Source: an uncultured Desulfosarcina sp. (GTDB taxonomy: Bacteria > Desulfobacterota > Desulfobacteria > Desulfobacterales > Desulfosarcinaceae). From it: DNA of 64,000 nt. Shown here in pieces: positions 29,658-52,440 of the stretch. Numbering within the stretch: position 1 is the stretch's first letter; each line of letters begins with the position of its first letter. The notes beneath the pieces were generated by a model. That model worked only from the letters and a program-made list of their open reading frames with translations. It had not been told where the DNA came from and ran no database searches. Where the stretch lies: assembly GCA_963674945.2 (NCBI GenBank), contig CAXXWQ010000003.1, positions 640,001 through 704,000 on the forward strand, given 5' to 3'. The translations under genes were made by a program, and so were the position numbers.

Positions 29658-31271
<1,614 letters not shown>

Positions 31272-33501: not shown

Positions 33502-33552
33502 ATCCTCATCGAGGAGGTTAAAAAACGAAATGAACGCACCTACACTTCATAA
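33502..33552 (+). pseudogene. C-terminal relic of a RelE/HigB-like toxin
   Basis: ILIEEVKKRNERTYTS* overlaps the start of the HTH gene; no upstream coding part left. Confidence 0.6.
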
Positions 33553-33874
33553 TGTCCAAGTCATCAGTCGAGATGGAAAACCCGAATACGCCGTCGTGCC
33601 ATATATGGATTACCTACGACTTCTCGAAAAAGCCGAAGACAGCGATGCCCTCATACCCCATGAAGTCGTCGGGTTGGTCATCGAAAAAGAGTTCAACCTA
33701 CTCAAAGCCTGGCGCAAGCATCTCGGTCTGACCCAGAAAGAGGTTGCCCAACGCGCCGGTATCACCCAATCGGCCCTGTCCCAGATGGAACGTACAGCAA
33801 GCAACAACCGAACGGCTACTCTGGAGAAACTGGCCAAGGCCCTGGGGATCGAAACCGGACAGTTGGTTGACTAA
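33530..33874 (+). CDS. XRE-family HTH protein (antitoxin-like), antisense within the cas operon
   Basis: VQVISRDGKPEYAVVPY...KAWRKHLGLTQKEVAQRAGITQSALSQME; GAGGAGG RBS. Confidence 0.88.
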   Translation: MNAPTLHNVQVISRDGKPEYAVVPYMDYLRLLEKAEDSDALIPHEVVGLVIEKEFNLLKAWRKHLGLTQKEVAQRAGITQSALSQMERTASNNRTATLEKLAKALGIETGQLVD

Positions 33875-33931: not shown

Positions 33932-34834
33932 TCATTTGCAAAGCCTTTGTAACGCCTCGCCTTCTAACTGATCCAGTTCTTCCAATTCAAGATGTTCCAA
34001 TTTATCCCGCAATTCATTTGATTCGTATGAACCATCTTTGTTTATTTCCAGAAGTTCGCGTAACGCCCTGTGAACTCTGGCTGAAGAGTACTGACCGCTT
34101 GGGCTGTTGTGTTTCCACCAAAGGACTTTCATGACTTCCATGCTTCCTTCGGGTCGTGCAGCGGAAACATCGTTGACGAAAAGCGTTTGTAGAGCCAATT
34201 TAATTTTCTCGGCGTCATCATCCGAAAAGGCTGTCTTGCTGGCAAGTTGTGTGTTGATAGCACCGTAAGAAACATAAATCCCCTTATCAACGCGGTGCTT
34301 CATCCCCATCGTATCCGCATTTTTTTTATCCGGTTCGTTCTCATTAGTTTCGAGATTGACGCTTTTAGTAATTTGCAGACTATCGGGTGTAATCGGGTCG
34401 ATGCTGAACGCACTCTGAATGGTTACAGGGCCCCGGATTCCAATAGAAACGCTATCGCTGCCCTCGCCTTCGTCTTTTGTTTTCTTTTTTGCCTTAAAGG
34501 CAAAGACCTGCCCAAAGGCGCGAACATCAAACCACTTTTTACATGCTTCTTCCCTTGTTTTCTCTCCCGGAATTTTGGCCGCGGCAAAACGAGAGTTCAA
34601 CGAACGATGCTCATCAACACGATTTTCATCTGACTGAACAAAAATGGATTCGCCCATATCCTGCAGACGGTTGCGGATTTTACGTTTGAGACAAACGTCC
34701 GAAATTTCACCAAAGCCGTCGTAGGTTTGGCGGGGACGGTTTCCGTTCAGCGGGTCGCCATTTGGATTCGCCCGGTTAACAGAGATAATCACCGCAAAAT
34801 CAATTTTTTTCGTGAGCACTTTATTGTCCGCCAT
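33932..34834 (-). CDS. cas7: Type I-C Cas7 (Csd2)
   Basis: ANPNGDPLNGNRPR, SDVCLKRKIRN, FDVRAFG, TMGMKH, SAARP. Confidence 0.95.
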   Translation of the reverse strand: MADNKVLTKKIDFAVIISVNRANPNGDPLNGNRPRQTYDGFGEISDVCLKRKIRNRLQDMGESIFVQSDENRVDEHRSLNSRFAAAKIPGEKTREEACKKWFDVRAFGQVFAFKAKKKTKDEGEGSDSVSIGIRGPVTIQSAFSIDPITPDSLQITKSVNLETNENEPDKKNADTMGMKHRVDKGIYVSYGAINTQLASKTAFSDDDAEKIKLALQTLFVNDVSAARPEGSMEVMKVLWWKHNSPSGQYSSARVHRALRELLEINKDGSYESNELRDKLEHLELEELDQLEGEALQRLCK

Positions 34835-34845
34835 ATGTTACCCTC

Positions 34846-35241
34846 CTATTTGTTGCAATCGGTTGATTGTTTTTTCTTTTCAGCAGCAGCCTTAACCAAA
34901 CTGTCGATGTAGGCGCGTTCATGGTAATAGCCTATTAGATACGAACCGTTCAGCGGCAAATCTTTTTCGTAATCACCCGTAGTAAACTGATTCGTCACAG
35001 CTTGAATTTCATTAAATGCAAATCCGCTTTTCACCGTTTGAATATACGGGTTTAGGCAACCGTGAATGGTTTGCCATGTCCTGAACGGACGCTGGACAAA
35101 GGCTTGCATGTGCCGAATCGCAGCGGTAACCACACGGTCATTACCTTTTATGCGGAGGGCGTACTCCTCCAATTTGTCCGCCGCACCAAGCAGTCTGCCG
35201 TAAAGGTAATCACGGTCGGTTCTGTCGAGTTCAATGCTCAA
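34846..35241 (-). CDS. cas11: Predicted Cas11c small subunit translated from an internal start in cas8c
   Basis: In-frame TTG at 35241 with GAGGAGG (35250-35256) 8 nt upstream; product (M)SIELDRTDRDYLYGRLL..., 131 aa. Confidence 0.7.
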   Translation of the reverse strand: MSIELDRTDRDYLYGRLLGAADKLEEYALRIKGNDRVVTAAIRHMQAFVQRPFRTWQTIHGCLNPYIQTVKSGFAFNEIQAVTNQFTTGDYEKDLPLNGSYLIGYYHERAYIDSLVKAAAEKKKQSTDCNK

Positions 35242-36822
35242 TTTGTAGTCCTCCTCGTTGCGTTGTTGAAAATCCTTGCGCACCAACGCACATGCCGTTG
35301 ATGCGATTTGCTCAAAACCATTACGGTCAAATTTGCCATTCCTTGTAATTGCCAACGGATTGGCGGCCCGCCGAACAGCCGCCACCACATAATCCTTAGG
35401 CAAAAACGCTCCGTCAAAAACACAGCGGAGCAACCGTTCCCGTGCCGCTTTTTTGATTTTTATATAGCTCTCATCCTTGCCGCCGCGTGGCTTGCCGTAA
35501 ACCGCCTCGGTGATTTTATCCACGGACGGCGCGCCGATATAGGGAACATATTTCTCATCAACTTTGTCCCAAAACTTTTGATGCCATTTACAGGAGCTAT
35601 GCCAGTCGGCGACCCTTTCAAGATATTCGTTTTTGTCCAGTTCCCGGTAAAAGGTGATGGACAACCGGCCGGTTGTGGCTGCGTCCAGTGCAATCACCGC
35701 CGTCTTTGCATGGTGCTTCAACGCCTGACCGTGCCCGAATCCGCCAAGGGAGTTTCTTAGCGCATCAGCATAAACAAAGCCCGTTTCGGCGCGAAGGTCG
35801 ATCCGGATGTCGCTCTCTGTTTGCACCGAATTTTTTTGCAATACGGCCCAAATACTGTTGTCTTCTATTGGCGGAGGCAGCAGTTTTTCCGTGGAACCAA
35901 TCGTGAAGGATAAAATGACCTGTTCACCGCAGTAGTATCCCCGATCATTGATAAGATACCGCAAAAATTGGTGCGCCTTCTGGGATGTCTCATACCCGAT
36001 GGAGACGGCTTCGGAGGAGTCTCTGAATTTTCCTCTAAACGTGTAATTCGTTTTGTCGTTATCAGAAACAAGCTTTGAATTTCCTGAAGCGTTGGAAATC
36101 TTTTTGGGGTGGGATGTCGCTATGAGTTGCTCCACGCCCGTAACATAGTCCAAAGCAACCTTGCTCTTCAGTTTCGTCTCTTCTGTTAATTTCTTCTTTT
36201 CAGCCAACGGCAATTTTTTCTTGCCGGCCAACTCATCTTCAGCCCGTTTTTTTCTTTCAGCCAGTTTCTCCTTTTCAGCCACATAATATTGATGCCACGC
36301 ACTGAAAAGCGTGTCGTCTTCCCAAGCTTTTGTTTGCTGCTTATTGGGTATTTCTACCTGAAAAATAATGTTCGTTTTATCTTTCAGTTTCATCTCCGAC
36401 AAATCAGAAGCGATAGTTCCTTTCGAAACATATTGATAAATGGCGTTAACCTGCTCAGTCGCAAATCCGGATTCGGTAAAACTCTTCAGTTGCGCAATGT
36501 AGGCATCATATTTCTTTCCATCTCCCTTCAAATACCCATACTGGTCAAAAACCGGATGGGGTGAAACACCGCTTGAACGCCCCAAGCTTTCTTCCGTAAC
36601 CGGAATTTTGATATTAACGAGAGGGTTTCCTGAGCCTTGGCTGGTTGGTTTTGTCTTTTTTGAAATTTTATCGGAACCAACAAATTTTCCTTCACCATCA
36701 ATAACGATGACGGCAATAATATCACTGTTGTTGGAAATGGATGTCGTCGAAAGCGGATACGTTTTTTTCAACGCATCCGAATTCTTGTCGTAACTGTCCA
36801 CTAAATGTTGCCAGAATCCCAT
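34846..36822 (-). CDS. cas8c: Type I-C Cas8c (Csd1)
   Basis: Position between cas5 and cas7; TFRGKF, SQKAH, AATTGRLSI, YLYGRLL motifs. Confidence 0.92.
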   Translation of the reverse strand: MGFWQHLVDSYDKNSDALKKTYPLSTTSISNNSDIIAVIVIDGEGKFVGSDKISKKTKPTSQGSGNPLVNIKIPVTEESLGRSSGVSPHPVFDQYGYLKGDGKKYDAYIAQLKSFTESGFATEQVNAIYQYVSKGTIASDLSEMKLKDKTNIIFQVEIPNKQQTKAWEDDTLFSAWHQYYVAEKEKLAERKKRAEDELAGKKKLPLAEKKKLTEETKLKSKVALDYVTGVEQLIATSHPKKISNASGNSKLVSDNDKTNYTFRGKFRDSSEAVSIGYETSQKAHQFLRYLINDRGYYCGEQVILSFTIGSTEKLLPPPIEDNSIWAVLQKNSVQTESDIRIDLRAETGFVYADALRNSLGGFGHGQALKHHAKTAVIALDAATTGRLSITFYRELDKNEYLERVADWHSSCKWHQKFWDKVDEKYVPYIGAPSVDKITEAVYGKPRGGKDESYIKIKKAARERLLRCVFDGAFLPKDYVVAAVRRAANPLAITRNGKFDRNGFEQIASTACALVRKDFQQRNEEDYKLSIELDRTDRDYLYGRLLGAADKLEEYALRIKGNDRVVTAAIRHMQAFVQRPFRTWQTIHGCLNPYIQTVKSGFAFNEIQAVTNQFTTGDYEKDLPLNGSYLIGYYHERAYIDSLVKAAAEKKKQSTDCNK

Positions 36823-36824
36823 GA

Positions 36825-37565
36825 TTATTCCTCCTCCAACAAATCCGCCATGGAAAAATCATCATCGATGGATAAGAAGTTCAGGCCTTTCTCGAATTCT
36901 TTTGCCGTCATCTTGCGGATAAAACGTCGCATGGAAGAATCACAATCCTTCGGTATTGGAAACTCGATGATGCCGTCTTTCATTTTTGGCCTCCACAGAC
37001 GGACCACCAGTTCATGCTTTCCGGTTTCATCGGGATAGTCATATCCGTGAAACATCACGCCAAAATCGAGTTCCCCATATTGGTCGTAAAAACCTTCGCC
37101 GTCTTCGCCGAAAACACAAGGTTCAACATAGCCCTGACACTCCCGCGTTCCGAGAAAAACATCCCGCCGTCCGCCTTTTTTGATGCTGCGTCTGGCGATG
37201 TTGTGATGCTTGTGTTCGTTGCGATCATCGAAAAGTTCTTTTCGGTGTTCGTTCCATTCGAAATGAGCAAGAACCTGATACTCCACATCCCGCAAGTAGG
37301 TGTAGTAGGAAAGGTCATTGCCACCGCTCATTTTAATCGGCTTGACCCCCTTGGACTCGGTTTGAATCTTTTTCATCACCCGAACGGCATCGATGTACCA
37401 AATAAAAGTCGGCTTCCAGTAAACGCTTTCAATAATGCCTTTGAGTGCCTGATAGGTCGGGATCTGATAGGAAAATTTCTCACCGCCTACTCTTGTGACG
37501 GGATCGGCAAACATCGCGTATCGGCCCGTAATCTTAAATTCCACTGAATTGCGTTTTTTGTCCAT
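36825..37565 (-). CDS. cas5: Type I-C Cas5 (Cas5d)
   Basis: [41 protein letters not shown]. Confidence 0.95.
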
Positions 37566-39120: not shown

Positions 39121-40871
39121 CCTAAATTTTGCACGACGAATCATAAATAAGGAAGAAACCATCTGGGAATCCTGTTATAAAGGGAGGTGACATGCTTCCA
39201 CAATAAAAACAGGAGGTACCCAGATGGTAAAATCAAGTAAATCAAAAAGCCGTAAAAACCGCAAGAACAAAGGGTTTAAGAAAAACGCTGCCAAGGCCAG
39301 AAAAATCAACGCTTCTACGCCGCATGAGACATGCAGCGAGCAACTAAGTCCATTTGGCGGGCTTTTAGCGATGATCAAATTTTTCGATTTGATCGATTTC
39401 AAACAAATATTTAACTCCACCTATCATGCGCCTGTCCGGCAGCCAAAGCTGGGCCACTATTCGATGGTGGCAGGACTTCTGATGCTACTGTTTATAGGCT
39501 TTAACAGAATCTGGCATTTTACCTACATCCGACTCGATGCCATGCTGTGTGGATTTTTCCGACTGACAAAGTTGCCGGTGTCGAGCACCTTCTGGCGATA
39601 CCTTGACAGCTTGGGAATTAACCAAGCCCAGTCCCTTCAGAAGCTCATGAGCATTCTGCGAGAACGGGTGTGGCAACAACTGGGTTTCAATTATTACCGG
39701 ATATGCATCGATATCGACACCACCGTCGAGACGCTGTACGGCAATCAGCAAGGAGGCAGGAAAGGCCATAACACCAAAAACCGGGGAAAGAAAGGTTACC
39801 GTCCGGTGCTGTGCTTCATTGAGCAGACCCGGGAGTGTCTTATCGGAAAGCTTCGAAAAGGTGAAACACTCAGTGGCAAACAGACCGCTGCCTTTATCCT
39901 CCAGACAAAATCCCATTTACCCGGTTGTGTTCGCCAAGTCCTGCTGCGGGCCGATGGAGAGTTCCTGAGCTGGGAAAGTGTCCAGACTGCAAGACACTGC
40001 GGCTATGACTTCATCATCGCCAACAAGAGATGCGACCCGCCCTTTGATCCGAGAGGTTGGTATCGGCCCTGGAAACGCAAGGATGTTGAGTATAACAGCT
40101 GCGTCTATCAGCCCCTTGGTTGGGATACCCCGTGCCGGTTTGTGGCCATGCGTATACCGAAAGCCAAATCAACTTCAAACCAGCAAGTGCAATGCCTACT
40201 CTTTGAAGACGACAACTATACATACCGGATATTCTGCACGAACCTTTCAGGGCCGGCCCATGAGGTGGTCAGCAAGTATGATAAACGCGCTGACGTTGAA
40301 AACCTGGTGGGTGAGGCCAAACGTGAAGGGCTTGAGGCCATCCCATCAGCAAAGTTCAAAAACAATTATGCGTTCTTTCAACTTGTAGTGCTGTCGTATA
40401 ACATTTGGCGTTACATCAAGATGCTTGCCGCCATGAGCCAGGACAGAAAAAAGATGCCGCATTTAAAAACGGTGGCATCCAATACAATCCGGATCGCCAG
40501 GTTGAAGCTGCTTTTCATTGCCGCAAAAGTTGTCAAAGATCAAAACCGTGACAAGGTCAAGTTCTCCGTACACGATGCGAGAACGCCCGCGATGATCCAT
40601 TTTCTCGACTTCCTGGATCAAGCGCGATTGAAACCGAAGCCGTGGAGACAAGTGGCATGTTGAACGTCTGCGTAACTCGGGAAAATATCATGCAAGAATT
40701 TTTTTTCACGACAATTTCCTTTGTATATGGGCAGTTAAACGAAACACGTGCAAACCGTATACTTCACACTAAAGGCAACGATCATGTGTTAGAGTAGAAA
40801 ACGAACTCTTCGTCATTTTGAAAAAATTGGCCACCGTGGCCAATTAAAGCTAATTGCGTGCAAAATTCAGG
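39121..40871 (+). mobile_element. IS1380-family insertion sequence (1751 bp)
   Basis: 15-bp IRs CCTAAATTTTGCACG / reverse complement CCTGAATTTTGCACG; 5-bp direct repeat TATAA at 39116-39120 and 40872-40876. Confidence 0.9.
39224..40663 (+). CDS. IS1380-family DDE transposase
   Basis: IDIDTT, GYRPVL, LRADGEF, YDKRADVENLVGEAK. Confidence 0.88.
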   Translation: MVKSSKSKSRKNRKNKGFKKNAAKARKINASTPHETCSEQLSPFGGLLAMIKFFDLIDFKQIFNSTYHAPVRQPKLGHYSMVAGLLMLLFIGFNRIWHFTYIRLDAMLCGFFRLTKLPVSSTFWRYLDSLGINQAQSLQKLMSILRERVWQQLGFNYYRICIDIDTTVETLYGNQQGGRKGHNTKNRGKKGYRPVLCFIEQTRECLIGKLRKGETLSGKQTAAFILQTKSHLPGCVRQVLLRADGEFLSWESVQTARHCGYDFIIANKRCDPPFDPRGWYRPWKRKDVEYNSCVYQPLGWDTPCRFVAMRIPKAKSTSNQQVQCLLFEDDNYTYRIFCTNLSGPAHEVVSKYDKRADVENLVGEAKREGLEAIPSAKFKNNYAFFQLVVLSYNIWRYIKMLAAMSQDRKKMPHLKTVASNTIRIARLKLLFIAAKVVKDQNRDKVKFSVHDARTPAMIHFLDFLDQARLKPKPWRQVAC

Positions 40872-41721
40872 TATAATATAAATGATGCGTTTAAGCTTAT
40901 GCTTCTTGGCGTGTTCCAAAGCGAACCGAAAGCTCGACAATGTTTTGCCCCCACCGGTTGGAACAGACAAAGTATAAATCCCCTGATTTCGGCCGCCTTC
41001 TTGCTCGCACTGTTCCGAAATACTCTTGCGGACTTCGTCAATATCACCATCACCGGAAAAAGAACCAAGATAGTTTTCTAATTGTTGAATCAAATTTTTC
41101 CAATCCGGCACAACATTATCAATTTCCAATCCGGCGCTGTTGCATCTATCCGCATCTACAAGGCCGGAATAAACGGCTTTCGTAAGAAAATGCAGCATAA
41201 ATAACGGGTTTAAATTTTTCGTTTGGCATTTTTGGCAAAAGCCCCGAATTTCCCCCTTCAATTTGGTTTCATTGATGCTGGGACTAAAATTTTTGATCGC
41301 TTCTTCATAGTGGAGCTTATCTTCGCTTTTATTGGTCCTGACGGACAAAGTCCTTTCACCGTCGATAATATTATCAAACAAACCGCCGTGATGTGTTGCG
41401 ATGACATTGCCGATGATGTCCGCAAGCAGGTGGTCATCGATTTTTTTCTCCGCAAACTTCGCTCCTTGCAGAGCATGGATAACTTCGCCACGCTGTACTT
41501 TATCGCCCCGCAGGCTACGTTCCAGATAATCCTGAAATGCCTTTGTGTATTTCCCTAAATCATGTAGCAGACCAGCTAAATAGGCCGTATTCTCACAACT
41601 GAAAACACCAGCGAATGTTTTTGCAAGTCTTGCAACATTTGTTATATGTTCAGAAAGTTTCTGCCCTTTGCGAGCGATATAATCCATAAGGTATCTTTCG
41701 TCTGTTGCAGCGAAGGATGCA

Positions 41722-41811
41722 ATTTGGAATCAGCACCCCGAAAATTAGGGTGCTTCATCCACCAAAATGATAGTAATATTGTTTCAATCCACACCCATCG
41801 AATAGGGTGAC
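41722..41811 (-). CRISPR. Degenerate two-repeat mini-array (crRNA-like regulatory RNA candidate)
   Basis: Repeat 1 GTCACCCTATTCGATGGGTGTGGATTGAAAC (41811-41781) shares the 3' 12 nt with the array repeat; about 26-nt spacer AATATTACTATCATTTTGGTGGATGA; repeat 2 keeps a GCACCC/GGGTGC stem. Confidence 0.82.
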
Positions 41812-41824
41812 AAAAATAAATTCA

Positions 41825-42451
41825 CTATCGCCAAGAAGTTGGCCGAGCAAGCCTAAAACCATCAGCCTTTTTTACAATATCGGAAAATTGACTGTCCGCT
41901 ATTTTTTTCCGGCCTATTGTAAAGAAGGCATTTGCCGCCATTTGCAACTGCTTTGAATGCCTGTTGGGAGGAAAAGCAACAATAATTCGTTTGTTTGGAA
42001 AAAGGTCACGAACGGATTTAACGGGGCCGGTTAAATCACTGTCCCCTGATAATAATAATGCTGTATCGAATCGGTTATTAAATGCGTCAGTCATCAGTTC
42101 TATTGCAATATTCACGTCTGTCATTTTTTCTTCATGAGTTCGCCATGATGATCCGCAATTATGGCAAACGACTTTTTTAGACAGATAGTGGCCAAAATAA
42201 ATACTGCAATCGTGAAGTGTCTCAACGGCCTCGATATAGGCTGCCTGGCGTTTGCTTTTGTCTGGGTCTTGCTTATTTGATGAGACCCGGCTTGTAAAAT
42301 ATTTGGTATACGATAGGGTTTGATACTGTTTTAGAAGTGAGCGAGATAATTGTTGAATATTCAGCCAGTAATATCTGCGGTACCCCTTGCTTTTTAGACC
42401 AAAATAAAGGTTAAAGCCATCGATATAGGAGATCACGCGCTGCATTTCCAA
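41825..42451 (-). CDS. NYN-domain (LabA/DUF88 PIN-like) predicted ribonuclease
   Basis: YIDGFNLY, EKMTDVNIA, LLSGDSDL, VAFPP. Confidence 0.9.
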   Translation of the reverse strand: MEMQRVISYIDGFNLYFGLKSKGYRRYYWLNIQQLSRSLLKQYQTLSYTKYFTSRVSSNKQDPDKSKRQAAYIEAVETLHDCSIYFGHYLSKKVVCHNCGSSWRTHEEKMTDVNIAIELMTDAFNNRFDTALLLSGDSDLTGPVKSVRDLFPNKRIIVAFPPNRHSKQLQMAANAFFTIGRKKIADSQFSDIVKKADGFRLARPTSWR

Positions 42452-42517
42452 ACAAGCCTCATTCCGCCAACAAACTACTTGACTTCCGCCGGCTAATATT
42501 CATATATATTTTCAATA

Positions 42518-42576
42518 GCACCCTCAGTGAGAGCATCACTGGGCCGACGCTCCCGCAAGGGAGCGTTTCTTTTTTT
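42518..42576 (+). ncRNA. Candidate small structured RNA or leader upstream of the NYN gene
   Basis: Hairpin CAGTGA-gagca-TCACTG then hairpin ACGCTCCC-gcaa-GGGAGCGT plus T-run; TTGACT at 42479 upstream. Confidence 0.45.
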
Positions 42577-42592
42577 ACCATTATAAAAGCAA

Positions 42593-42621
42593 CTTGTATC
42601 TTAAATTGGTTTATCTGTCAA
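42593..42621 (-). promoter_or_regulatory. Putative sigma70 promoter for the NYN-mini-array-cas3 transcript
   Basis: TTGACA (42621-42616)-17 nt-TACAAG; a perfect TATAAT also at 42585-42580. Confidence 0.5.
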
Positions 42622-42631
42622 TAAAATACAG

Positions 42632-42648
42632 TTCAATATTACTATGAT
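42632..42648 (+). promoter_or_regulatory. PAM (TTC) plus partial protospacer of the mini-array spacer
   Basis: TTC-AATATTACTATGAT vs spacer AATATTACTATCAT: 13/14, single mismatch at position 12. Confidence 0.78.
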
Positions 42649-43309
42649 AAATAAGGCTTCCTTAATCCCAAGCCAATACCTCCGGCCCGCATACCATCGT
42701 GTAACAGGAACGACATCAGCGCCCAATGCTACAGGCGACATATTGACCCAGTTGAACATGAATTTTGAATTGTTATCGACACCAAACCCAAGTCGCCCCT
42801 GTTCTAATGAAGTTTGGCCGGTGAGTATAAAATTGTCTAAAAACTACGGATAAAGGAATTCCGCTCTAATCAACCTGCTTAATATACGTAGTCTCGAAAA
42901 AAAATATCAACTTCACAAGTGCCCGCACGTAAATCCTAAACAACCGTCACAATAATAAAAAGGATCGATGGAACAGTGGATCTGGAAATGAAGAAAAAAG
43001 AGAGAAATTCTTATAAAAAGCTTTTCCCCAATTTGACCATCGGGGAAAAAGGCAAAATGAGTTTTTTGTGTGACTGTTTGGCCATAATCGGCCTGAAAAA
43101 GCTTTTTAGCAAATGCCCACACATCAATCAAGCCTAATATTTCGGGAGGAAAGCAGGATGTATGGAAAAAGGATTCAGGGATTCGAGAATTCGTTGATTG
43201 ACCGGTGCTGTTCGAAATTCCGACAAGAACAGCATCACTGCGCAAGGATGCCGGCGGAACATTCCGATTTCTGCACCTGGGCGCCGACATTGGAAATCAT
43301 GTGATCTCC

Positions 43310-44287
43310 TCATTGAGGACTCTTGGTGCTACTCCTACCATCGCTCAACAGAGTTAGCGGATTCTTGTGAGATGTGAGCAGAATCAGGGATTCGTAATTC
43401 ACCACGCCAGGCATATTTCCCAAATCGCGGGTCATAAAATCGGTCATCTGATCTGAATTCTGAAAGGATGTCATGAACGCACAATTGAATGCCCCGACAG
43501 TAAGGGCCGCATACTTGACAGGCGAAAGAGACTGCAACGCTTCGGTCACGTTTTTCAGGATGGACGGATGGAATTGGACCAGCGTATATCCCCGAATGGC
43601 ATCCTCAGCGCTTGCCGGATCGGGGGTGGTGATCACGCGGATAACCCTCTGGGAGGTAATTCTGCGCAGACAGGAACGCACAGTCGGAATACTGGCACCA
43701 ATGTTGCCGGCAAGATCTTTTACGGGTATTCTGGGCGATTTTTCCAGTTCCCTGATTACGGCGAGATCCAGCTCACCGAGCTTGATGCGGAATCGCGAAG
43801 TGACAGCGGCACCATCGGAGGGAATCTGATCCATACTGCTCTTGATTATTTTCACCGACAACATCGTCTCTATCTTGACGTCTGCCGGGAGATTACCGAA
43901 ATCCTCCGCAAAAGCACCCAAATACTCATTGAGATTCTGATACATCGCCATCGCCAGAATATCATAGCGTCCTGCCGTCGCCCAAACGAACTTAACACTG
44001 TTGATGGCGGCAAGTTGCCTTGCCAGAGAATGCACCGCCCAGGGAAAGGTGTTGACCGCCAGAATAATTCGCGTCTCGTATCCCAATGCCGCATAATACG
44101 GTTTCACGGTAATTGAGATGACGTCTCGTTCGATGAGCCTGTTAAATCGCCTGTTAACCGTCGATGGGGATGTGCCCAGTCTGGAAGCGAGTGTCGCATA
44201 GCTGGCACGAGCGTCCTTTTCCAACTCTCGAATGAGCATCAGATCCAATTCATCAAGGTTCGGAAGGTTGTTTTGCATGCTTTTCAT
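43310..44287 (-). CDS. Lrp/AsnC-family regulator with two tandem AsnC units
   Basis: LDELDLMLIRELEKDAR and LGELDLAVIRELEKSPR HTH starts, each followed by a RAM domain. Confidence 0.88.
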   Translation of the reverse strand: MKSMQNNLPNLDELDLMLIRELEKDARASYATLASRLGTSPSTVNRRFNRLIERDVISITVKPYYAALGYETRIILAVNTFPWAVHSLARQLAAINSVKFVWATAGRYDILAMAMYQNLNEYLGAFAEDFGNLPADVKIETMLSVKIIKSSMDQIPSDGAAVTSRFRIKLGELDLAVIRELEKSPRIPVKDLAGNIGASIPTVRSCLRRITSQRVIRVITTPDPASAEDAIRGYTLVQFHPSILKNVTEALQSLSPVKYAALTVGAFNCAFMTSFQNSDQMTDFMTRDLGNMPGVVNYESLILLTSHKNPLTLLSDGRSSTKSPQ

Positions 44288-44747
44288 AAATTTACATCGT
44301 GTGAATCTATTTTGCGCTGCTTGTACCATATGTCCCGCCGGCTGCGCAACTCAGTTACATTCGACTCGAGCAAACCACTTCCCTCACCATTGAAAAATCA
44401 ATGAATGATTTTTGATGAGACCGCGTTTTCGCATATCCTGCGCGAACAAACATGTTTGTTACCATACCATTTTCACGAAATGCTAACGATACCAGATGTA
44501 ATATGGCATTTCGGAAAAATCATAGCCGACATCGCGACCGATTTTATCTTTTTATCGATTTTTTTTCTTTATTAATCATATTTATTTTGTATTTACGGTT
44601 GATAATGAAATTTTAACATGGTATATTTTTTTACGAATCATGAATAGAGGATGGAATGTCACATGCATTGCCGCAAAGGACGGTTCATCACCCTGGCACC
44701 GCCTCGGTAAATGCTTTGTACCGGCTGCTATTGCCCAGAAAGGAGAT

Positions 44748-47611: not shown

Positions 47612-48574
47612 TTAATGGTTCTGCAGGTAGATCTTCGCATCCCGCGCGGAGATCGGCATTGATATTGATTTGGGATAGAAAATGATTTCACTGCTCCGAA
47701 TGCTGTGAATCGTTTCCAGTTCGTTGATGAGAAAGTCCGACATCTCTTCCGCGTCTTTGAATGTGGCGAATACCAGCAGATCGTATCTGCCTGAAATGGC
47801 CATAGCGGTGTTGACCAGCTTATAAGCCGCTATCCTCTCGGATACTGTCAGGATGGTTCCGGGTTCAACTTTCAGAAATATTCCTATGCTTAACTGATTT
47901 CCAATCATGGCATGAGAAACAACGCAGTGAATTCTGACGACATCTTCATCAAGCAACCTCTGCAATCTGATAGTGGCAGTTTGTCTGGTAATGCCGAGTT
48001 TGGTGGCAAGATGGGATATTGCTATTCTGGGGTTATTCTCAAGATAGGTAAGTAAATTCCAGTCATGCTCATCAAGCTGTCGATACACTTTTGATGAGAT
48101 TGGTTTATACTCGGCGTCTCCAAGGAGGTTGAAGGAATATTTCATCACTTTCATGTTCGGGAAAACTTCAATGTTTGTGATGCGGGAGATCTTTCCCAAA
48201 TCGATGGAGACCAATTTAAAAAGCATTTCCGGATCGTTGTAGGCAGTCCACGCCAGAATATCAAATCGCCCCGAAGTTATCGACACAAACATCAATTCAT
48301 AATTGGCCAGTTCGTAAGCCACGGATTTGGCATATCCCTTAGATACATTCAGGCCGAGCATTGCCGATTGGAAACCGACCGAGGCAAGGTTGAGAGCACT
48401 ATAAAAGGAGATGGTGCCTTCATCCAGCAACCGGTTCATTCTCCTTTTGACGGTGGATTGATCGATTCCCAATCTGTCAGCCAGATAGGCATATTTTTCT
48501 CTGGGACTGTTCTCCAACTCCGAAATTAATTTTAAATCCGTGGCGTCCAGATCGCCCTTTTTTTTTCGTGACAT
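47612..48574 (-). CDS. Lrp/AsnC-family regulator with two tandem AsnC units, divergent from the GRE operon
   Basis: LDATDLKLISELENSPR and LDEHDWNLLTYLENNPR; GRFD/GRYD RAM motifs. Confidence 0.88.
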   Translation of the reverse strand: MSRKKKGDLDATDLKLISELENSPREKYAYLADRLGIDQSTVKRRMNRLLDEGTISFYSALNLASVGFQSAMLGLNVSKGYAKSVAYELANYELMFVSITSGRFDILAWTAYNDPEMLFKLVSIDLGKISRITNIEVFPNMKVMKYSFNLLGDAEYKPISSKVYRQLDEHDWNLLTYLENNPRIAISHLATKLGITRQTATIRLQRLLDEDVVRIHCVVSHAMIGNQLSIGIFLKVEPGTILTVSERIAAYKLVNTAMAISGRYDLLVFATFKDAEEMSDFLINELETIHSIRSSEIIFYPKSISMPISARDAKIYLQNH

Positions 48575-49024: not shown

Positions 49025-51499
49025 ATGGCTACGGAACTCAAAGTAATAAGGCAGACACCGAGCCCGCGCATGCCCCAACCGACAGCGAAAAAAGGGGGCC
49101 CGAGCACGCCACGGATGCAACGGCTGAAGCAGGCCTTCAGGGAAGCGAAACCCACGATTTGCGCTGAGCGTACTGCGCTGGTTACCGCGTCTTACAAAGA
49201 GACCGAGGCATTGCCGCCGATACTGCGACAGGCCATGGCCTTTGAAAAGGTGATGGACGAGATGCCGATCTGGATACAGGATGACGAACTCATCGTATCC
49301 AACCTGGCCTCCAAACCGGGAGGCGCCTTCCTTTTTCCGGAGTACGATGATGCGTGGATCATGCCGGAACTGGACACCATCTCGACACGGAGAGTTGATC
49401 CTTGGAAACTGCAAGAGGATGACAAAGAGATCATCAGAAGTTGTCGGGAGTACTGGAGCGGCGGCGGCGGACGAACCCTGTCAGCCAAGGCCGAAGCCCT
49501 GGTCACGGACGAGGTGCGCAAAGCCATAGAGATTCGCACCCTGTTTAATGGCCCCCTGGGGAAGATGTGTGGTGTCGGCCACATAGCGCCGGATATCGAC
49601 GGCGTCATCAAGCGGGGGCTCAATGCCTTCATTGCCGAGGCCGAAGCCCATATCGCCCGATTGGATCTTACGAAGCCGGAAGATATCGCCAAGCTGCCGT
49701 TTTTAAAAGCCGTCATCATCGTGGACAAAGCCGTGATTCGATGGGCCGGCAGATTCGCGGCACTTGCCAGAGAGAAAGCCGCGGTCGAGAAAGATGAAAC
49801 CCGAAAAAAGGAATGGGAAGAAATCGCCGCCGTATGCGAACGGGTTCCGGCCAACCCGTCGCGGAATTTTCGCGAGGCGGTGCAGGTCGCCTCATTCATC
49901 ATGGCAGCGGTACAGATTGAGCAGCCCGGTGTCTCAATCAGCACCGGCAGGCTGGATCAGTACTTCTTCCCGTATTACGAGAAGGATATCGAAGCCGGGA
50001 CGATCACGAAAGACCAGGCGCTGGAGATGCTGGAATGTCTCTGGATCAAACTGTCGGAGTCCAAGCGTGTGAGTCCGGAAATGGGCACGTTCGCCCTGAA
50101 CGGGTATCCCATCTGGATGGCCGTGACCGTGGGCGGTCAAACGGCGGACGGCTACGATGCCACCAACGATGTCTCCTATCTGTTCCTTAAGGCCTCCAGC
50201 AATCTGCAGTTACACGAACCCATGCTGATATCACGGATACACAAGCGCACTCCGGACAGGTTTTTAATGGCCTCCTGCGAGTCAATCAAGGCCCATGGCG
50301 GGGGGCTTCCCGCTTTGTTTAACGACGACCCCATCATCGCGAGCCAACTGATCCACGTGCCGGGCATCACCAAGGAGGACGCGAACGATTACAGTATTAT
50401 CGGTTGCTCGGATGTCGTATGCGCAGGAAAGGGCACCGAGGGACTGCCCTACCAGATTATAAGCTTGCCACGGGTGCTGGAGCGCATGATGACGGGAGAG
50501 GACCCCGGCAGTGGGAAGCCGCTGACGTCGGGTGTGGGAGACATGCTCACGTGGGAAGGCTTCGATGATATGATGCGAGCATACCACGAACATGTGAAAA
50601 TATGGGCCAGGCTGTCGTTCATGCAGGTGCTTCCGCTGCTGGAATTACATGGGAAGCATTTGCCCTGTCCCCTGATGTCTTCGCTGATGCAGGACTGTAT
50701 CGGCCGCGGCAAGGCCTTCTACGACGGCGGCGCGATCTATGGGAGCCATGCTGTCGTCAGTTGCCTCGTCGGGGTCGCCACCCTGGCCAACTCCATGGCC
50801 GCGATTCGGAAGCTCGTTTTCGACGATAAGATTCTTACCATGTCCCAGCTCAAGCATGCGATTGAGACGAATTTCGACGACGAGTCAACGACGCCCAGCG
50901 GTCCGGCAATACGGGGGATGTGCCGTAAAGCACCGAAGTATGGCAACGATGATCCATATGTGGATCACATCGCCAAAGACTGTTTAAACATCATCACAAA
51001 GGAAATGTGGAAATTCGAAACCGAACCCGGTCTGGGCTACGGCGCTGTCGTTTCACCGGTAACGGCCCATATCTCCCTGGGTTTCCTCTCTGGTGCTACC
51101 CCGGATGGGCGCAAAGCGATGACACCACTTTCCGATGCAACCTCCCCTGCCCAAGGCACAGATCTGAACGGACCCACTGCCGCGATAAAATCGGCAACCA
51201 ACCTGGAGTATGTAAATTTATCCCAGGGGGCCGTTTATAACATGCGCATGCACCCGGCATCGCTGCAGAGCACGGCGGGAATGGCAAAATGGGGCAATCT
51301 TATCCGCACTTTCTTCGACCTTGGCGGTTGGCAGGCCCAATTCAACGTGGTCGACGCCGAAGTATTGAAAGAGGCACAACAGCATCCTGATGACTACAAA
51401 GATCTCGTGGTGCGCGTGGTTGGCTACAGCGCATTTTTCGTGGATCTGGACAAGATGGTGCAGGATGATCTTATCAGCAGGACGGAACACGCGGTATAG
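49025..51499 (+). CDS. Glycyl radical enzyme (PFL2/dehydratase-like), substrate unknown
   Basis: 824 aa; GRLDQY, IIGCSD Cys loop, PKYGND, ATPDGR, QFNV, LVVRVVGYS Gly loop. Confidence 0.92.
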   Translation: MATELKVIRQTPSPRMPQPTAKKGGPSTPRMQRLKQAFREAKPTICAERTALVTASYKETEALPPILRQAMAFEKVMDEMPIWIQDDELIVSNLASKPGGAFLFPEYDDAWIMPELDTISTRRVDPWKLQEDDKEIIRSCREYWSGGGGRTLSAKAEALVTDEVRKAIEIRTLFNGPLGKMCGVGHIAPDIDGVIKRGLNAFIAEAEAHIARLDLTKPEDIAKLPFLKAVIIVDKAVIRWAGRFAALAREKAAVEKDETRKKEWEEIAAVCERVPANPSRNFREAVQVASFIMAAVQIEQPGVSISTGRLDQYFFPYYEKDIEAGTITKDQALEMLECLWIKLSESKRVSPEMGTFALNGYPIWMAVTVGGQTADGYDATNDVSYLFLKASSNLQLHEPMLISRIHKRTPDRFLMASCESIKAHGGGLPALFNDDPIIASQLIHVPGITKEDANDYSIIGCSDVVCAGKGTEGLPYQIISLPRVLERMMTGEDPGSGKPLTSGVGDMLTWEGFDDMMRAYHEHVKIWARLSFMQVLPLLELHGKHLPCPLMSSLMQDCIGRGKAFYDGGAIYGSHAVVSCLVGVATLANSMAAIRKLVFDDKILTMSQLKHAIETNFDDESTTPSGPAIRGMCRKAPKYGNDDPYVDHIAKDCLNIITKEMWKFETEPGLGYGAVVSPVTAHISLGFLSGATPDGRKAMTPLSDATSPAQGTDLNGPTAAIKSATNLEYVNLSQGAVYNMRMHPASLQSTAGMAKWGNLIRTFFDLGGWQAQFNVVDAEVLKEAQQHPDDYKDLVVRVVGYSAFFVDLDKMVQDDLISRTEHAV

Positions 51500-51516
51500 T
51501 GCGGCGGGAGTGACAG

Positions 51517-52440
51517 TTGGCAAAAAGTATAAAAGGACGGATTTTTAATATCCAAAGATACTCGCTGCATGACGGTACCGGGATCAGAACGCTTGTTTTC
51601 TTAAAAGGATGCCCGTTACGCTGCCTCTGGTGCAGCAATCCGGAGTCACAAAAGAGAACGCCGCAACTGGGATTCATCGAATCCCGCTGTGTGGGCGCCG
51701 ACCTTTGCGGTGGAGCATGTTTATCCGTGTGCCCTGTGGAGGGGCTGCATTTAAACAAAGAGGACAAACCGGTCATTGACCGGCAGGTATGCGATGCTTG
51801 CGGCCGATGTGCCAAAGTGTGCTATGAAGACGCACTCAAAGCCGTCGGTCATGATATGAGTGTCGATGAGGTAATCGCGGAAGTTGAGAAAGACAGACCT
51901 TTTTACCGGAGGTCGGGTGGAGGTGTCACCATTGGCGGTGGCGAACCGCTGCTGCAATACCGTTTCGCCGCTGCCCTTCTTGAAGCTGCCCATGGCGCCT
52001 ATTTGCATACCGCACTGGAAACCTGTGGTCATGCACCCTGGGAACACTTCGCGCCTGTGCTGGAACATGTGGACCTGTTGCATATTGACCTCAAACACAT
52101 GGACCCGGTCCGGCACAGGGAACTGACAGGTCAATCGAACGAACTGATCATCGCCAACGTAAAAAAAATCCCCTCGGTCAAGCCTCCTGAATCGGTAATT
52201 GTGAGATGCCCTGTTGTCCCGGGATGTAATGATTCGATGGAAAACATCAGGGACATGGCAAAGTTCGTGGTGAGTCTTGGATTCAAGCAGATTGAGCTTA
52301 TACCGTACCACAAAATGGGGCTTTCCAAATACGCGCAGTATGACATGGATTATCCGCTGCCGGCGTGTGAATCGCCATCGGCGTCCCATATGTCGCGTCT
52401 CAGAGAAATCGTTTCTACTGAGGGCGGAGAGAACATCTGA
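51517..52440 (+). CDS. Glycyl-radical activating enzyme with ferredoxin insert
   Basis: HDGTGIRTLVFLKGCPLRCLWCSNPES, extra Cys clusters, GGGEP. Confidence 0.94.
   Translation: MAKSIKGRIFNIQRYSLHDGTGIRTLVFLKGCPLRCLWCSNPESQKRTPQLGFIESRCVGADLCGGACLSVCPVEGLHLNKEDKPVIDRQVCDACGRCAKVCYEDALKAVGHDMSVDEVIAEVEKDRPFYRRSGGGVTIGGGEPLLQYRFAAALLEAAHGAYLHTALETCGHAPWEHFAPVLEHVDLLHIDLKHMDPVRHRELTGQSNELIIANVKKIPSVKPPESVIVRCPVVPGCNDSMENIRDMAKFVVSLGFKQIELIPYHKMGLSKYAQYDMDYPLPACESPSASHMSRLREIVSTEGGENI

What the first reader, a model, noticed from the sequence alone, without database searches (positions are those of the whole stretch)
41722..42648. Hidden CRISPR mini-array whose spacer targets the promoter of an NYN nuclease-cas3 operon
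Seen: between the NYN stop and the cas3 start, the minus strand reads GTCACCCTATTCGATGGGTGTGGATTGAAAC-AATATTACTATCATTTTGGTGGATGA-AGCACCCTAATTTTCGGGGTGC. Repeat 1 keeps the exact 3' handle of the array repeat (GTGGATTGAAAC) and its stem, with a compensatory G-C to A-T change. Repeat 2 keeps only a stem. The 26-nt spacer is shorter than the array spacers. About 850 bp away, at 42632-42648, is TTC-AATATTACTATGAT. It matches spacer positions 1-11 and 13-14, and the PAM lies 10 bp from a minus-strand TTGACA box upstream of the NYN gene. Established: TTC is the type I-C PAM; Cas5d processes I-C repeats; every sixth crRNA position is unpaired in Cascade, so the position-12 mismatch is tolerated; short partial matches give binding without Cas3 cleavage, as for CreA/CreR-type RNAs. 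Inference: Cascade represses the transcript that carries NYN, the mini-array and cas3. This would be a negative-feedback loop in which loss or inhibition of Cascade (for example by an anti-CRISPR) de-represses a predicted RNase, acting as an addiction or abortive-infection back-up. I am not aware of an NYN-linked I-C example, but could not search.
Basis: partly seen in the sequence, partly recalled or inferred. Interest (0 to 1): 0.92.

Follow-up and report, generated by a model that had tools for sequence, protein, structure and literature searches.

The report
CRISPR-supervised NYN nuclease with small RNA
A leftover CRISPR repeat encodes a short guide that points the cell's own CRISPR complex at the promoter of a neighbouring candidate defence RNase; this known kind of control is here applied to a new cargo gene, which also carries its own, apparently undescribed, conserved small RNA.

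Summary
The guide's TTC-flanked target is the only such match in the 7.08 Mb genome. Seven other type I-C loci keep the NYN gene, the mini-array and a PAM-flanked target upstream of NYN, in two guide families. Across all eight loci, 11 of 13 mismatches in positions 1-14 fall on the unpaired positions 6 and 12 (positions 1-5 or 1-4 were forced by the search). The mechanism is known: CRISIS (I-C crRNA-like RNAs repressing embedded defence genes).

New here: the cargo is PADLOC HEC-09, which is not among the systems in the CRISIS preprint text, and this copy lies upstream of cas3, outside that screen.

First, 96 of 101 HEC-09-like loci carry a covarying ~65-nt two-hairpin RNA, usually with its own promoter. 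It has no Rfam match, I found no paper on it, and it resembles an AbiF-type antitoxin. Second, cas3 here is split by a recent IS1380-family element.

Repression, toxicity and antitoxin activity are all inferred. The one tested HEC-09 gave no phage defence. No earlier scan finding covers this locus.

The parts
41781..41811 (-). Repeat-like unit 1 (Psi-R1): 5-bp stem followed by the 11-nt 5' handle left by Cas5c cleavage (41791-41781)
   Evidence: 11-nt handle shown for I-C crlRNAs in 10.1101/2024.12.27.630466
41755..41780 (-). Guide (Psi-S), 26 nt; positions 1-14 match the target except position 12
41722..41754 (-). Repeat-like unit 2 (Psi-R2): 8-bp stem, degenerate tail
   Evidence: z -3.76
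42632..42648 (+). TTC PAM (42632-42634) and protospacer (42635-42648); unique in the genome
42593..42621 (-). Candidate NYN-cas promoter P2 (TTGACA-17-TACAAG); inferred start near 42586, about 46 nt from the PAM
   Evidence: read from sequence; not listed by the consensus scan
42644..42671 (-). Candidate promoter P1 (TTGGGA-16-TATCAT, 9/12); its -10 lies inside the protospacer
   Evidence: 4 sites found against 4.9 expected, so chance-level on its own
42516..42581 (+). HEC-09-associated small RNA: 8-bp hairpin (42523-42543) plus terminator hairpin (42546-42567) and U tract, antisense to the NYN 5' leader; putative RNA antitoxin
   Evidence: no Rfam match
42479..42508 (+). Putative promoter of the small RNA: conserved TTGACT -35; the -10 here is non-consensus and fails the strict test that 73 of 94 homologous elements pass
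41825..42445 (-). NYN (LabA/DUF88) protein, 206 aa, PADLOC HEC-09; four acidic active-site residues and a CxxC pair conserved
   Evidence: (E 3.8e-92, full length)
40872..41687 (-). cas3 5' part (HD domain to just past the Walker A motif), ending at the IS
39121..40871 (+). IS1380-family element (DDE_Tnp_1_4 transposase 39224-40663) with 5-bp target duplication; 10 copies in the genome
37586..39120 (-). cas3 3' part (helicase C-terminal region)
33932..37565 (-). cas5c-cas8c-cas7c, intact open frames (type I-C Cascade)
   Evidence: TIGR01876, TIGR01863, TIGR02589 above cut-off
29658..31271 (-). Canonical CRISPR array, 25 repeats and 24 spacers

Best explanation
The element is a CRISIS-type regulatory unit. 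A transcript from the promoter upstream of NYN runs through NYN, the mini-array, cas3 and probably cas5c-8c-7c. Cas5c cuts after the stem of repeat 1 and releases a short crRNA-like guide with an 11-nt handle. Cascade loaded with this guide binds the TTC-flanked 14-nt partial target in the promoter region, which is too short to license Cas3, and lowers transcription of HEC-09 NYN and of the cas genes. If Cascade is blocked, NYN transcription rises. HEC-09 also carries its own ~65-nt structured RNA, most likely an antitoxin or cis-regulator, so in CRISPR-linked copies the nuclease is under two RNA controls. Shown here: the anatomy, non-chance match, conservation and covariation of guide and target, HEC-09 identity, RNA covariation, and the IS in cas3. 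Inferred: processing, repression, RNase toxicity, antitoxin activity. In this strain interference is lost because cas3 is split, and whether Cascade is still expressed is unknown.
For: The match is unique in the genome and 0 of 2000 shuffles reach it. Seven of 101 other NYN loci examined are I-C-linked, and all 7 have a solitary repeat and a TTC-flanked match upstream of NYN: L012 has the window's layout; L014, L015, L106, L107, L108 and L129 have cas3-NYN-repeat-cas5c. There are two guide families, and they do not cross-match (runs of 3-7). In positions 1-14, 11 of 13 mismatches fall at 6 or 12. Guide and target change together at positions 13-14 between the window and L012, which matches out to position 19. 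The four guides tested gave a best run of 5 in 91 upstream regions of other NYN loci. CRISIS features are met: TTC PAM, mismatches at 6/12, 3' hairpin, repeat directly after the cargo, PAM about 37-46 nt from the start site. NYN is full-length HEC-09 with a NYN/MARF1 fold.
Against: There are no expression data, and no start site is mapped. The TTGACA promoter has a weak -10 and was not picked by the scan. The eight loci fall into only two NYN tree groups and a single origin is not excluded (quick tree). Positions 1-5 (1-4 for L129) were required by my target search, so their perfect match is by construction. L012 has a seed-region mismatch at position 8 and its promoter is cut off by the contig end; L108 mismatches at 9. 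HEC-09 gave no defence in the only test. The closest I-C systems (G015, Cas3 86-93% identical; G016) have neither NYN nor a solitary repeat upstream of cas3. cas3 is IS-split, and the IS may be polar on the Cascade genes, which argues against lethal de-repression.
Confidence: 0.8

Rival explanations
1. Pure cas autoregulation (CreR-like). The guide tunes the cas operon promoter, and NYN is a passenger that is harmless because its own small RNA neutralises it or because it is not toxic.
For: The repressed transcript probably includes the cas genes: cas3 starts 35 bp after repeat 2, and the cas3-cas5c gap is 20 bp. HEC-09 gave no defence when tested. HEC-09 relatives mostly occur without CRISPR (94 of 101 loci show no cas genes in the DNA held, many contigs short). 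The strain tolerates an IS upstream of the Cascade genes.
Against: The guide-target pair always brackets NYN, whether NYN lies before or after cas3. The closest I-C systems lacking NYN also lack the solitary repeat. The cassette sits next to Cas3 proteins only about 31% identical (window and L012), so it moves with NYN rather than with a given cas operon.
Confidence: 0.3
2. NYN is an accessory crRNA-trimming nuclease for this I-C system, like the Bacteroides fragilis type III NYN, and is co-regulated with the cas genes.
For: A CRISPR-associated NYN that trims crRNA is described (10.1101/2024.04.08.588522, abstract). CRISIS crlRNAs have non-canonical 3' ends of unknown origin.
Against: This NYN subfamily is a defence-island gene (HEC-09) found mostly away from CRISPR, and it carries its own RNA. 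Close I-C systems work without it. Cas5c normally suffices for I-C processing (recalled).
Confidence: 0.07
3. The repeat is a decayed array remnant and the match to the upstream region is chance.
For: The target region is AT-rich, and the match is short.
Against: The match is unique in the genome and absent from shuffles. It is conserved in 7 other loci with two guide families, and mismatches concentrate at positions 6 and 12.
Confidence: 0.02

Closest known systems
CRISIS, type I-C crlRNA-supervised immune systems (Nezha, Gabija, Wukong and others; bioRxiv 10.1101/2024.12.27.630466; read parts 1-3 of 6 of the text, supplements closed)
   Same: I-C Cascade; solitary repeat unit directly after the cargo gene; 11-nt handle; 3' hairpin; TTC PAM; partial match with mismatches at 6 and 12; target next to the cargo promoter. 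Six relatives found here have exactly the cas3-cargo-repeat-cas5c layout.
   Different: NYN has 0 occurrences in that text. The window and L012 have the cassette upstream of cas3, outside the cas3-cas5c interval that was screened. The cargo carries its own structured RNA. Anti-phage activity and toxicity are not shown for this cargo.
CreTA / CrePA and CreR (10.1101/2024.01.05.574328, 10.1101/2023.03.10.532045; passages read), and mini-arrays of Shmakov et al. (10.1101/2023.03.03.530964; passages read)
   Same: Degenerate two-repeat mini-array whose short spacer partly matches a promoter; repression of a toxin and/or of cas genes.
   Different: Characterised examples are I-B, I-E, I-F and V-A with other toxins. 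NYN has 0 occurrences in all three texts; I-C is mentioned only in passing in the CreR text.
HEC-09 (Hma-embedded candidate 9; bioRxiv 10.1101/2024.01.29.577857; passages read)
   Same: Full-length PADLOC match (E 3.8e-92); MARF1-like NYN fold with conserved aspartates.
   Different: Described as embedded in Hma systems, with no defence seen. The passages read mention neither an associated RNA nor CRISPR control.
AbiF / RCd22 type III-like toxin-antitoxin (bioRxiv 10.1101/2025.04.15.648962; abstract and outline read)
   Same: Single putative RNase gene with a conserved structured non-coding RNA immediately upstream.
   Different: AbiF is a HEPN-type Abi_2 protein (recalled), not NYN. The RNA here matches no Rfam family and is usually antisense with its own promoter. 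Binding and neutralisation are untested.

Membership tests
CRISIS (I-C) | Type I-C Cascade genes cas5c, cas8c, cas7c in the locus | tested here: met
   all above curated cut-offs
CRISIS (I-C) | Solitary repeat unit directly after the cargo, with hairpin, 11-nt handle and a 3' hairpin | tested here: met
CRISIS (I-C) | Partial match to a TTC/TTA-flanked target preceding the cargo, with mismatches at 6/12 or PAM-distal | tested here: met
CRISIS (I-C) | Target 37-46 bp from the transcription start site | tested here: inconclusive
   About 46 nt for candidate P2; the start site is inferred only. In the six cas3-NYN-cas5c relatives the PAM lies just after the -10.
CRISIS (I-C) | Cargo placed between cas3 and cas5c (screen criterion) | tested here: not met
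   Window and L012 have it upstream of cas3; 6 relatives meet it.
CRISIS (I-C) | crlRNA produced, and promoter repressed in a Cascade-dependent way | not testable with these tools
   needs small-RNA sequencing and reporter assays
CRISIS (I-C) | Cargo gives anti-phage defence or toxicity on Acr exposure | not testable with these tools
   One HEC-09 homolog was negative for defence in the literature.
HEC-09 / NYN (PF01936) | Profile match over the full length, NYN fold and acidic active-site residues | tested here: met
   D9, D110, D135, D137 invariant in 74 sequences; best hits 2qip and MARF1 NYN
Type III-like toxin-antitoxin (AbiF-like) | Conserved structured RNA gene adjacent to the toxin gene | tested here: met
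   96 of 101 loci; covariation
Type III-like toxin-antitoxin (AbiF-like) | RNA made as a separate transcript (own promoter and terminator) | tested here: inconclusive
   73 of 94 elements have a sigma70-like promoter pointing into the RNA in either orientation; the window copy fails the strict -10 test. No RNA data.
Type III-like toxin-antitoxin (AbiF-like) | Protein is toxic, and the RNA binds and neutralises it | not testable with these tools
   needs growth assays and binding assays

The most novel reading that the evidence does not exclude
HEC-09 NYN and its upstream two-hairpin RNA form an undescribed, widespread type III-like toxin-antitoxin family with a NYN/PIN-fold toxin. In some sulfate-reducer-type I-C loci this module has been put under Cascade control, so that an anti-CRISPR raises toxin mRNA above the antitoxin RNA and aborts infection. 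This is a two-layer RNA lock, and it would also explain why HEC-09 cloned with its native upstream region showed no activity.
Probability: 0.35. Interest if true: 0.8.

Novelty: new variant of a known kind. Interest (0 to 1): 0.63.

Why it matters
It extends CRISPR supervision to a new cargo and to a position upstream of cas3 that the published screen did not cover. It also gives natural guide-target covariation in eight loci. It yields a directly testable function for HEC-09, an orphan defence candidate from a family of more than 7000 protein clusters. The conserved, apparently undescribed small RNA predicts that removing the RNA, or blocking Cascade, should unmask NYN activity. If so, NYN joins the short list of RNA-neutralised bacterial toxins, and the CRISPR-linked copies are a toxin under two RNA controls.

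Tried and rejected
Expression and reads: no RNA holder was listed for the region. Contigs of 4 DNA runs from 2 studies showed no joint across the IS, so no IS-free cas3 allele was seen; contigs cannot show absence.

Database searches that found nothing useful:
- Rfam found no family for the NYN-associated RNA, only a sub-threshold CRISPR-DR9 hit on repeat 1.
- A PDB sequence search found nothing.
- A viral-contig scan for handle plus guide found 0 matches, so no phage mimic was seen.
- A pattern search of 401 genomes of the class gave 3 non-self hits: two inside a receptor gene and one ordinary array spacer, so no further window-type locus.
- The family of G726 added nothing.
- Plasmids gave 3 distant NYN hits, which I did not open.

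Checks within this genome and its relatives:
- No array spacer self-targets the genome (24 of 24 checked), so self-targeting does not explain the cas3 break.
- The other three lone handle matches in the genome have no hairpin, no cas genes and no target.
- The solitary repeats in L076, L096, L121 and L124 had no TTC/TTA target in the DNA held; L096 is cut 367 bp upstream.
- No clear internal promoter for cas5c was found; the scan hits in and near the IS are 9/12 and close to chance.

Other:
- The careful NYN tree and the one-clade test did not finish, so only the quick tree is used.
- The earlier-findings index held nothing relevant.
- No complex prediction was run.

Full report
1. Observation. 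The minus strand between the NYN stop (41825) and the cas3 start (41687) reads as reported. Repeat-like unit 1 (41811-41781) ends in the same 12 nt as the 25 array repeats. It folds into a 5-bp stem placed, as in the array repeat, directly before an 11-nt handle; one G-C pair of the array stem is replaced by A-U. The 26-nt spacer is shorter than the 24 array spacers of 32-36 nt. Unit 2 (41754-41722) keeps an 8-bp stem. The target is TTC (42632-42634) followed by 42635-42648 on the + strand, matching guide positions 1-11 and 13-14. With positions 6 and 12 free, this PAM-plus-match occurs once in the 7.08 Mb genome. One other site reaches position 11. None of 2000 shuffles of the 500 bp upstream of NYN reaches the observed run.

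2. Surroundings. The locus is the genome's only CRISPR-Cas system found with these queries. It is type I-C, with cas5c, cas8c and cas7c above NCBIfam cut-offs. cas3 is split by an IS1380-family element at 39121-40871 with a 5-bp target duplication. Nine other copies exist in the genome, eight of them at least 99.7% identical, so the insertion is recent. The two halves align to residues 1-273 and 269-774 of the intact Cas3 of relative G015. G015 and G016 have the closest Cas3 (86% and 66% over the HD part). Upstream of cas3 they have neither NYN nor a solitary repeat, and all 26 handle matches in G015 lie in its array. The NYN-repeat cassette is therefore an addition to this I-C lineage. There are two candidate minus-strand promoters around the target. 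P2 (TTGACA 42621-42616, 17 bp, TACAAG) would start about 46 nt from the PAM, but the scan did not list it. P1 (42671-42644) has its -10 inside the protospacer and is chance-level on its own.

3. Comparative test of the guide. I examined 101 NYN loci besides the window: 9, 1, the best 80 of 397, 4, 6 and 1 new. Many are short contigs, and the genome loci hold only 1.5 kb of flank. Seven have I-C cas genes next to NYN, and all seven have a solitary repeat after NYN and a TTC-flanked target before it.

L012 (NYN 76% identical) has the window's order NYN-repeat-cas3, with the target on the same strand as here, although its Cas3 is only about 31% identical to the window's. Its guide and target differ from the window's together at positions 13-14 and pair out to position 19, with mismatches at 6, 8, 12 and 18. 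L014, L015, L106, L107, L108 and L129 have cas3-NYN-repeat-cas5c and a different guide family. Their target lies on the other strand, just after the -10 of a TTGACA promoter.

Over the eight loci, 11 of the 13 mismatches in positions 1-14 are at 6 or 12; the others are at 8 (L012) and 9 (L108). Positions 1-5 (1-4 for L129) were fixed by the search. The two families do not cross-match (runs of 3-7). Four guides tested against the upstream regions of 91 other NYN loci reached at most position 5. The loci are not independent: the quick NYN tree gives two groups (support 99 and 100) and does not exclude one origin. Selection on target identity everywhere except positions 6 and 12 is the signature expected of Cascade recognition. 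That these positions are unpaired is established knowledge, also stated in the CRISIS text.

4. The cargo. The 206-aa protein is PF01936 NYN and a full-length match to PADLOC HEC-09 (E 3.8e-92). Four acidic residues and a cysteine pair are conserved in 74 homologs. The model (pLDDT 94.5) best matches 2qip and the MARF1 NYN domains. Payne et al. found HEC-09 embedded in Hma systems and saw no defence with the one member tested, cloned with its putative native promoter region (10.1101/2024.01.29.577857, passages). The family is large, with 7068 clusters at E<=1e-20.

5. An unreported second element. Between the target and NYN, the + strand carries an 8-bp hairpin, a terminator hairpin and a U tract (42516-42581; fold z -4.8; terminator listed). 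A motif search found the same element upstream of 94 of 101 loci (window plus 100; L129 not checked). In 88 it is antisense to NYN; in 6 it is inverted as a 5' leader. The covariance model added L008 and L078. The remaining five have 215 bp or less of upstream DNA or are 35% identical or less. In both orientations a sigma70-like promoter points into the same RNA strand in 73 of 94 cases; the window copy has the -35 but a non-consensus -10.

In 58 of the 94 aligned, 98.2% of cells pair, 10 of 14 pairs change on both sides, and hairpin 1 has 7 of 8 such pairs. The values exceed the shuffles (0/500 for four measures, 1/500 for one) and all slid controls (relatedness can inflate these values). Searching 150 other genomes of the phylum gave 6 hits. 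Two lie beside full NYN genes (both in the training set), one beside a truncated NYN start, and two are orphans next to other defence-like genes. The sixth is a weak hit that looks like the end of RNase P RNA (my recall). Rfam has no match. Searches returned no paper on an RNA associated with this NYN family. The layout resembles AbiF with its RNA antitoxin (abstract), which is an analogy, not a test.

6. Mechanism. Shown: anatomy, non-chance and conserved guide-target pairing, cargo identity, RNA covariation. Inferred from CRISIS: Cas5c releases the guide, Cascade binds the promoter without Cas3 cleavage, and repression is lifted by anti-CRISPR proteins. cas3 begins 35 bp after unit 2 and the Cascade genes follow closely, so the loop probably also autoregulates cas expression. 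Inferred with less support: NYN is a toxic RNase held by its small RNA, so Cascade adds a second lock. The IS in cas3 removes interference in this strain and may reduce Cascade expression. That the strain survives fits either the small RNA sufficing as a safety catch or NYN being harmless.

7. Comparison and novelty. The circuit is CRISIS-like. I read parts 1-3 of 6 of that preprint; it lists Nezha, Gabija and eight others, NYN does not occur in the main text, and the screen covered only the cas3-cas5c interval. Searches found no NYN-linked crRNA-like RNA. NYN also does not occur in the CrePA, CreR, mini-array or phage-Cracr texts searched. A CRISPR-associated NYN of a type III system trims crRNA (abstract) and is a minor rival. 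The window fails one CRISIS screen criterion (position) and the functional criteria are untested, so I file it as a new variant of a known kind that works like CRISIS.

8. Verdict. The feature is real and well supported. The toxic back-up role is open. The most surprising product of the follow-up is the conserved HEC-09 RNA. Interest 0.63.

Noticed in passing
window 39121-40871: A recent IS1380-family insertion splits cas3; there are 10 copies in the genome. No self-targeting spacer explains it.
   Followed up: yes
window 33530-33874 (+): A small HTH_3 (XRE-type) gene with an antitoxin-like N-terminus lies antisense between cas7c and cas4, inside the cas operon.
   Followed up: partly
L096 (G020:C154, about 12437): A two-repeat mini-array with another AT-rich spacer sits directly upstream of an I-C cas3; the contig ends 367 bp upstream, so target and cargo are not visible.
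   Followed up: partly
L121 and L124 (G020:C28:1621, C43:4678): Two solitary I-C-like repeats with nearly identical following sequence, with no cas genes detected in 3 kb; no local target was found.
   Followed up: partly
L076:190-215 (-): A lone I-C-like repeat about 800 bp upstream of a HEC-09 gene, on the opposite strand, with no cas genes or target in the 2.2-kb contig.
   Followed up: partly
L117 versus L103/L115: The same insertion site after an ABC permease holds the HEC-09 RNA plus NYN in one genome, and the RNA plus an unrelated 179-aa protein (no NCBIfam hit) in another, suggesting cargo exchange.
   Followed up: partly
L004, L064, L065, L079 (upstream of NYN): Tandem second copies of the HEC-09-associated RNA motif.
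   Followed up: no
L093, L094 and L012 (upstream of cas3): The closest I-C systems have what looks like a WYL-type regulator gene upstream of cas3 (read by eye, not scanned). L012 has an inverted repeat between the mini-array and cas3.
   Followed up: no
G000:C2:546230: The only other genomic site with TTC plus guide positions 1-11, in an AT-rich stretch; a possible weak second target.
   Followed up: no
window 49025-52440: A glycyl-radical-type enzyme gene and its activating enzyme gene (by sequence appearance, not scanned), near two double Lrp/AsnC regulators (43310-44329, 47612-48574).
   Followed up: no
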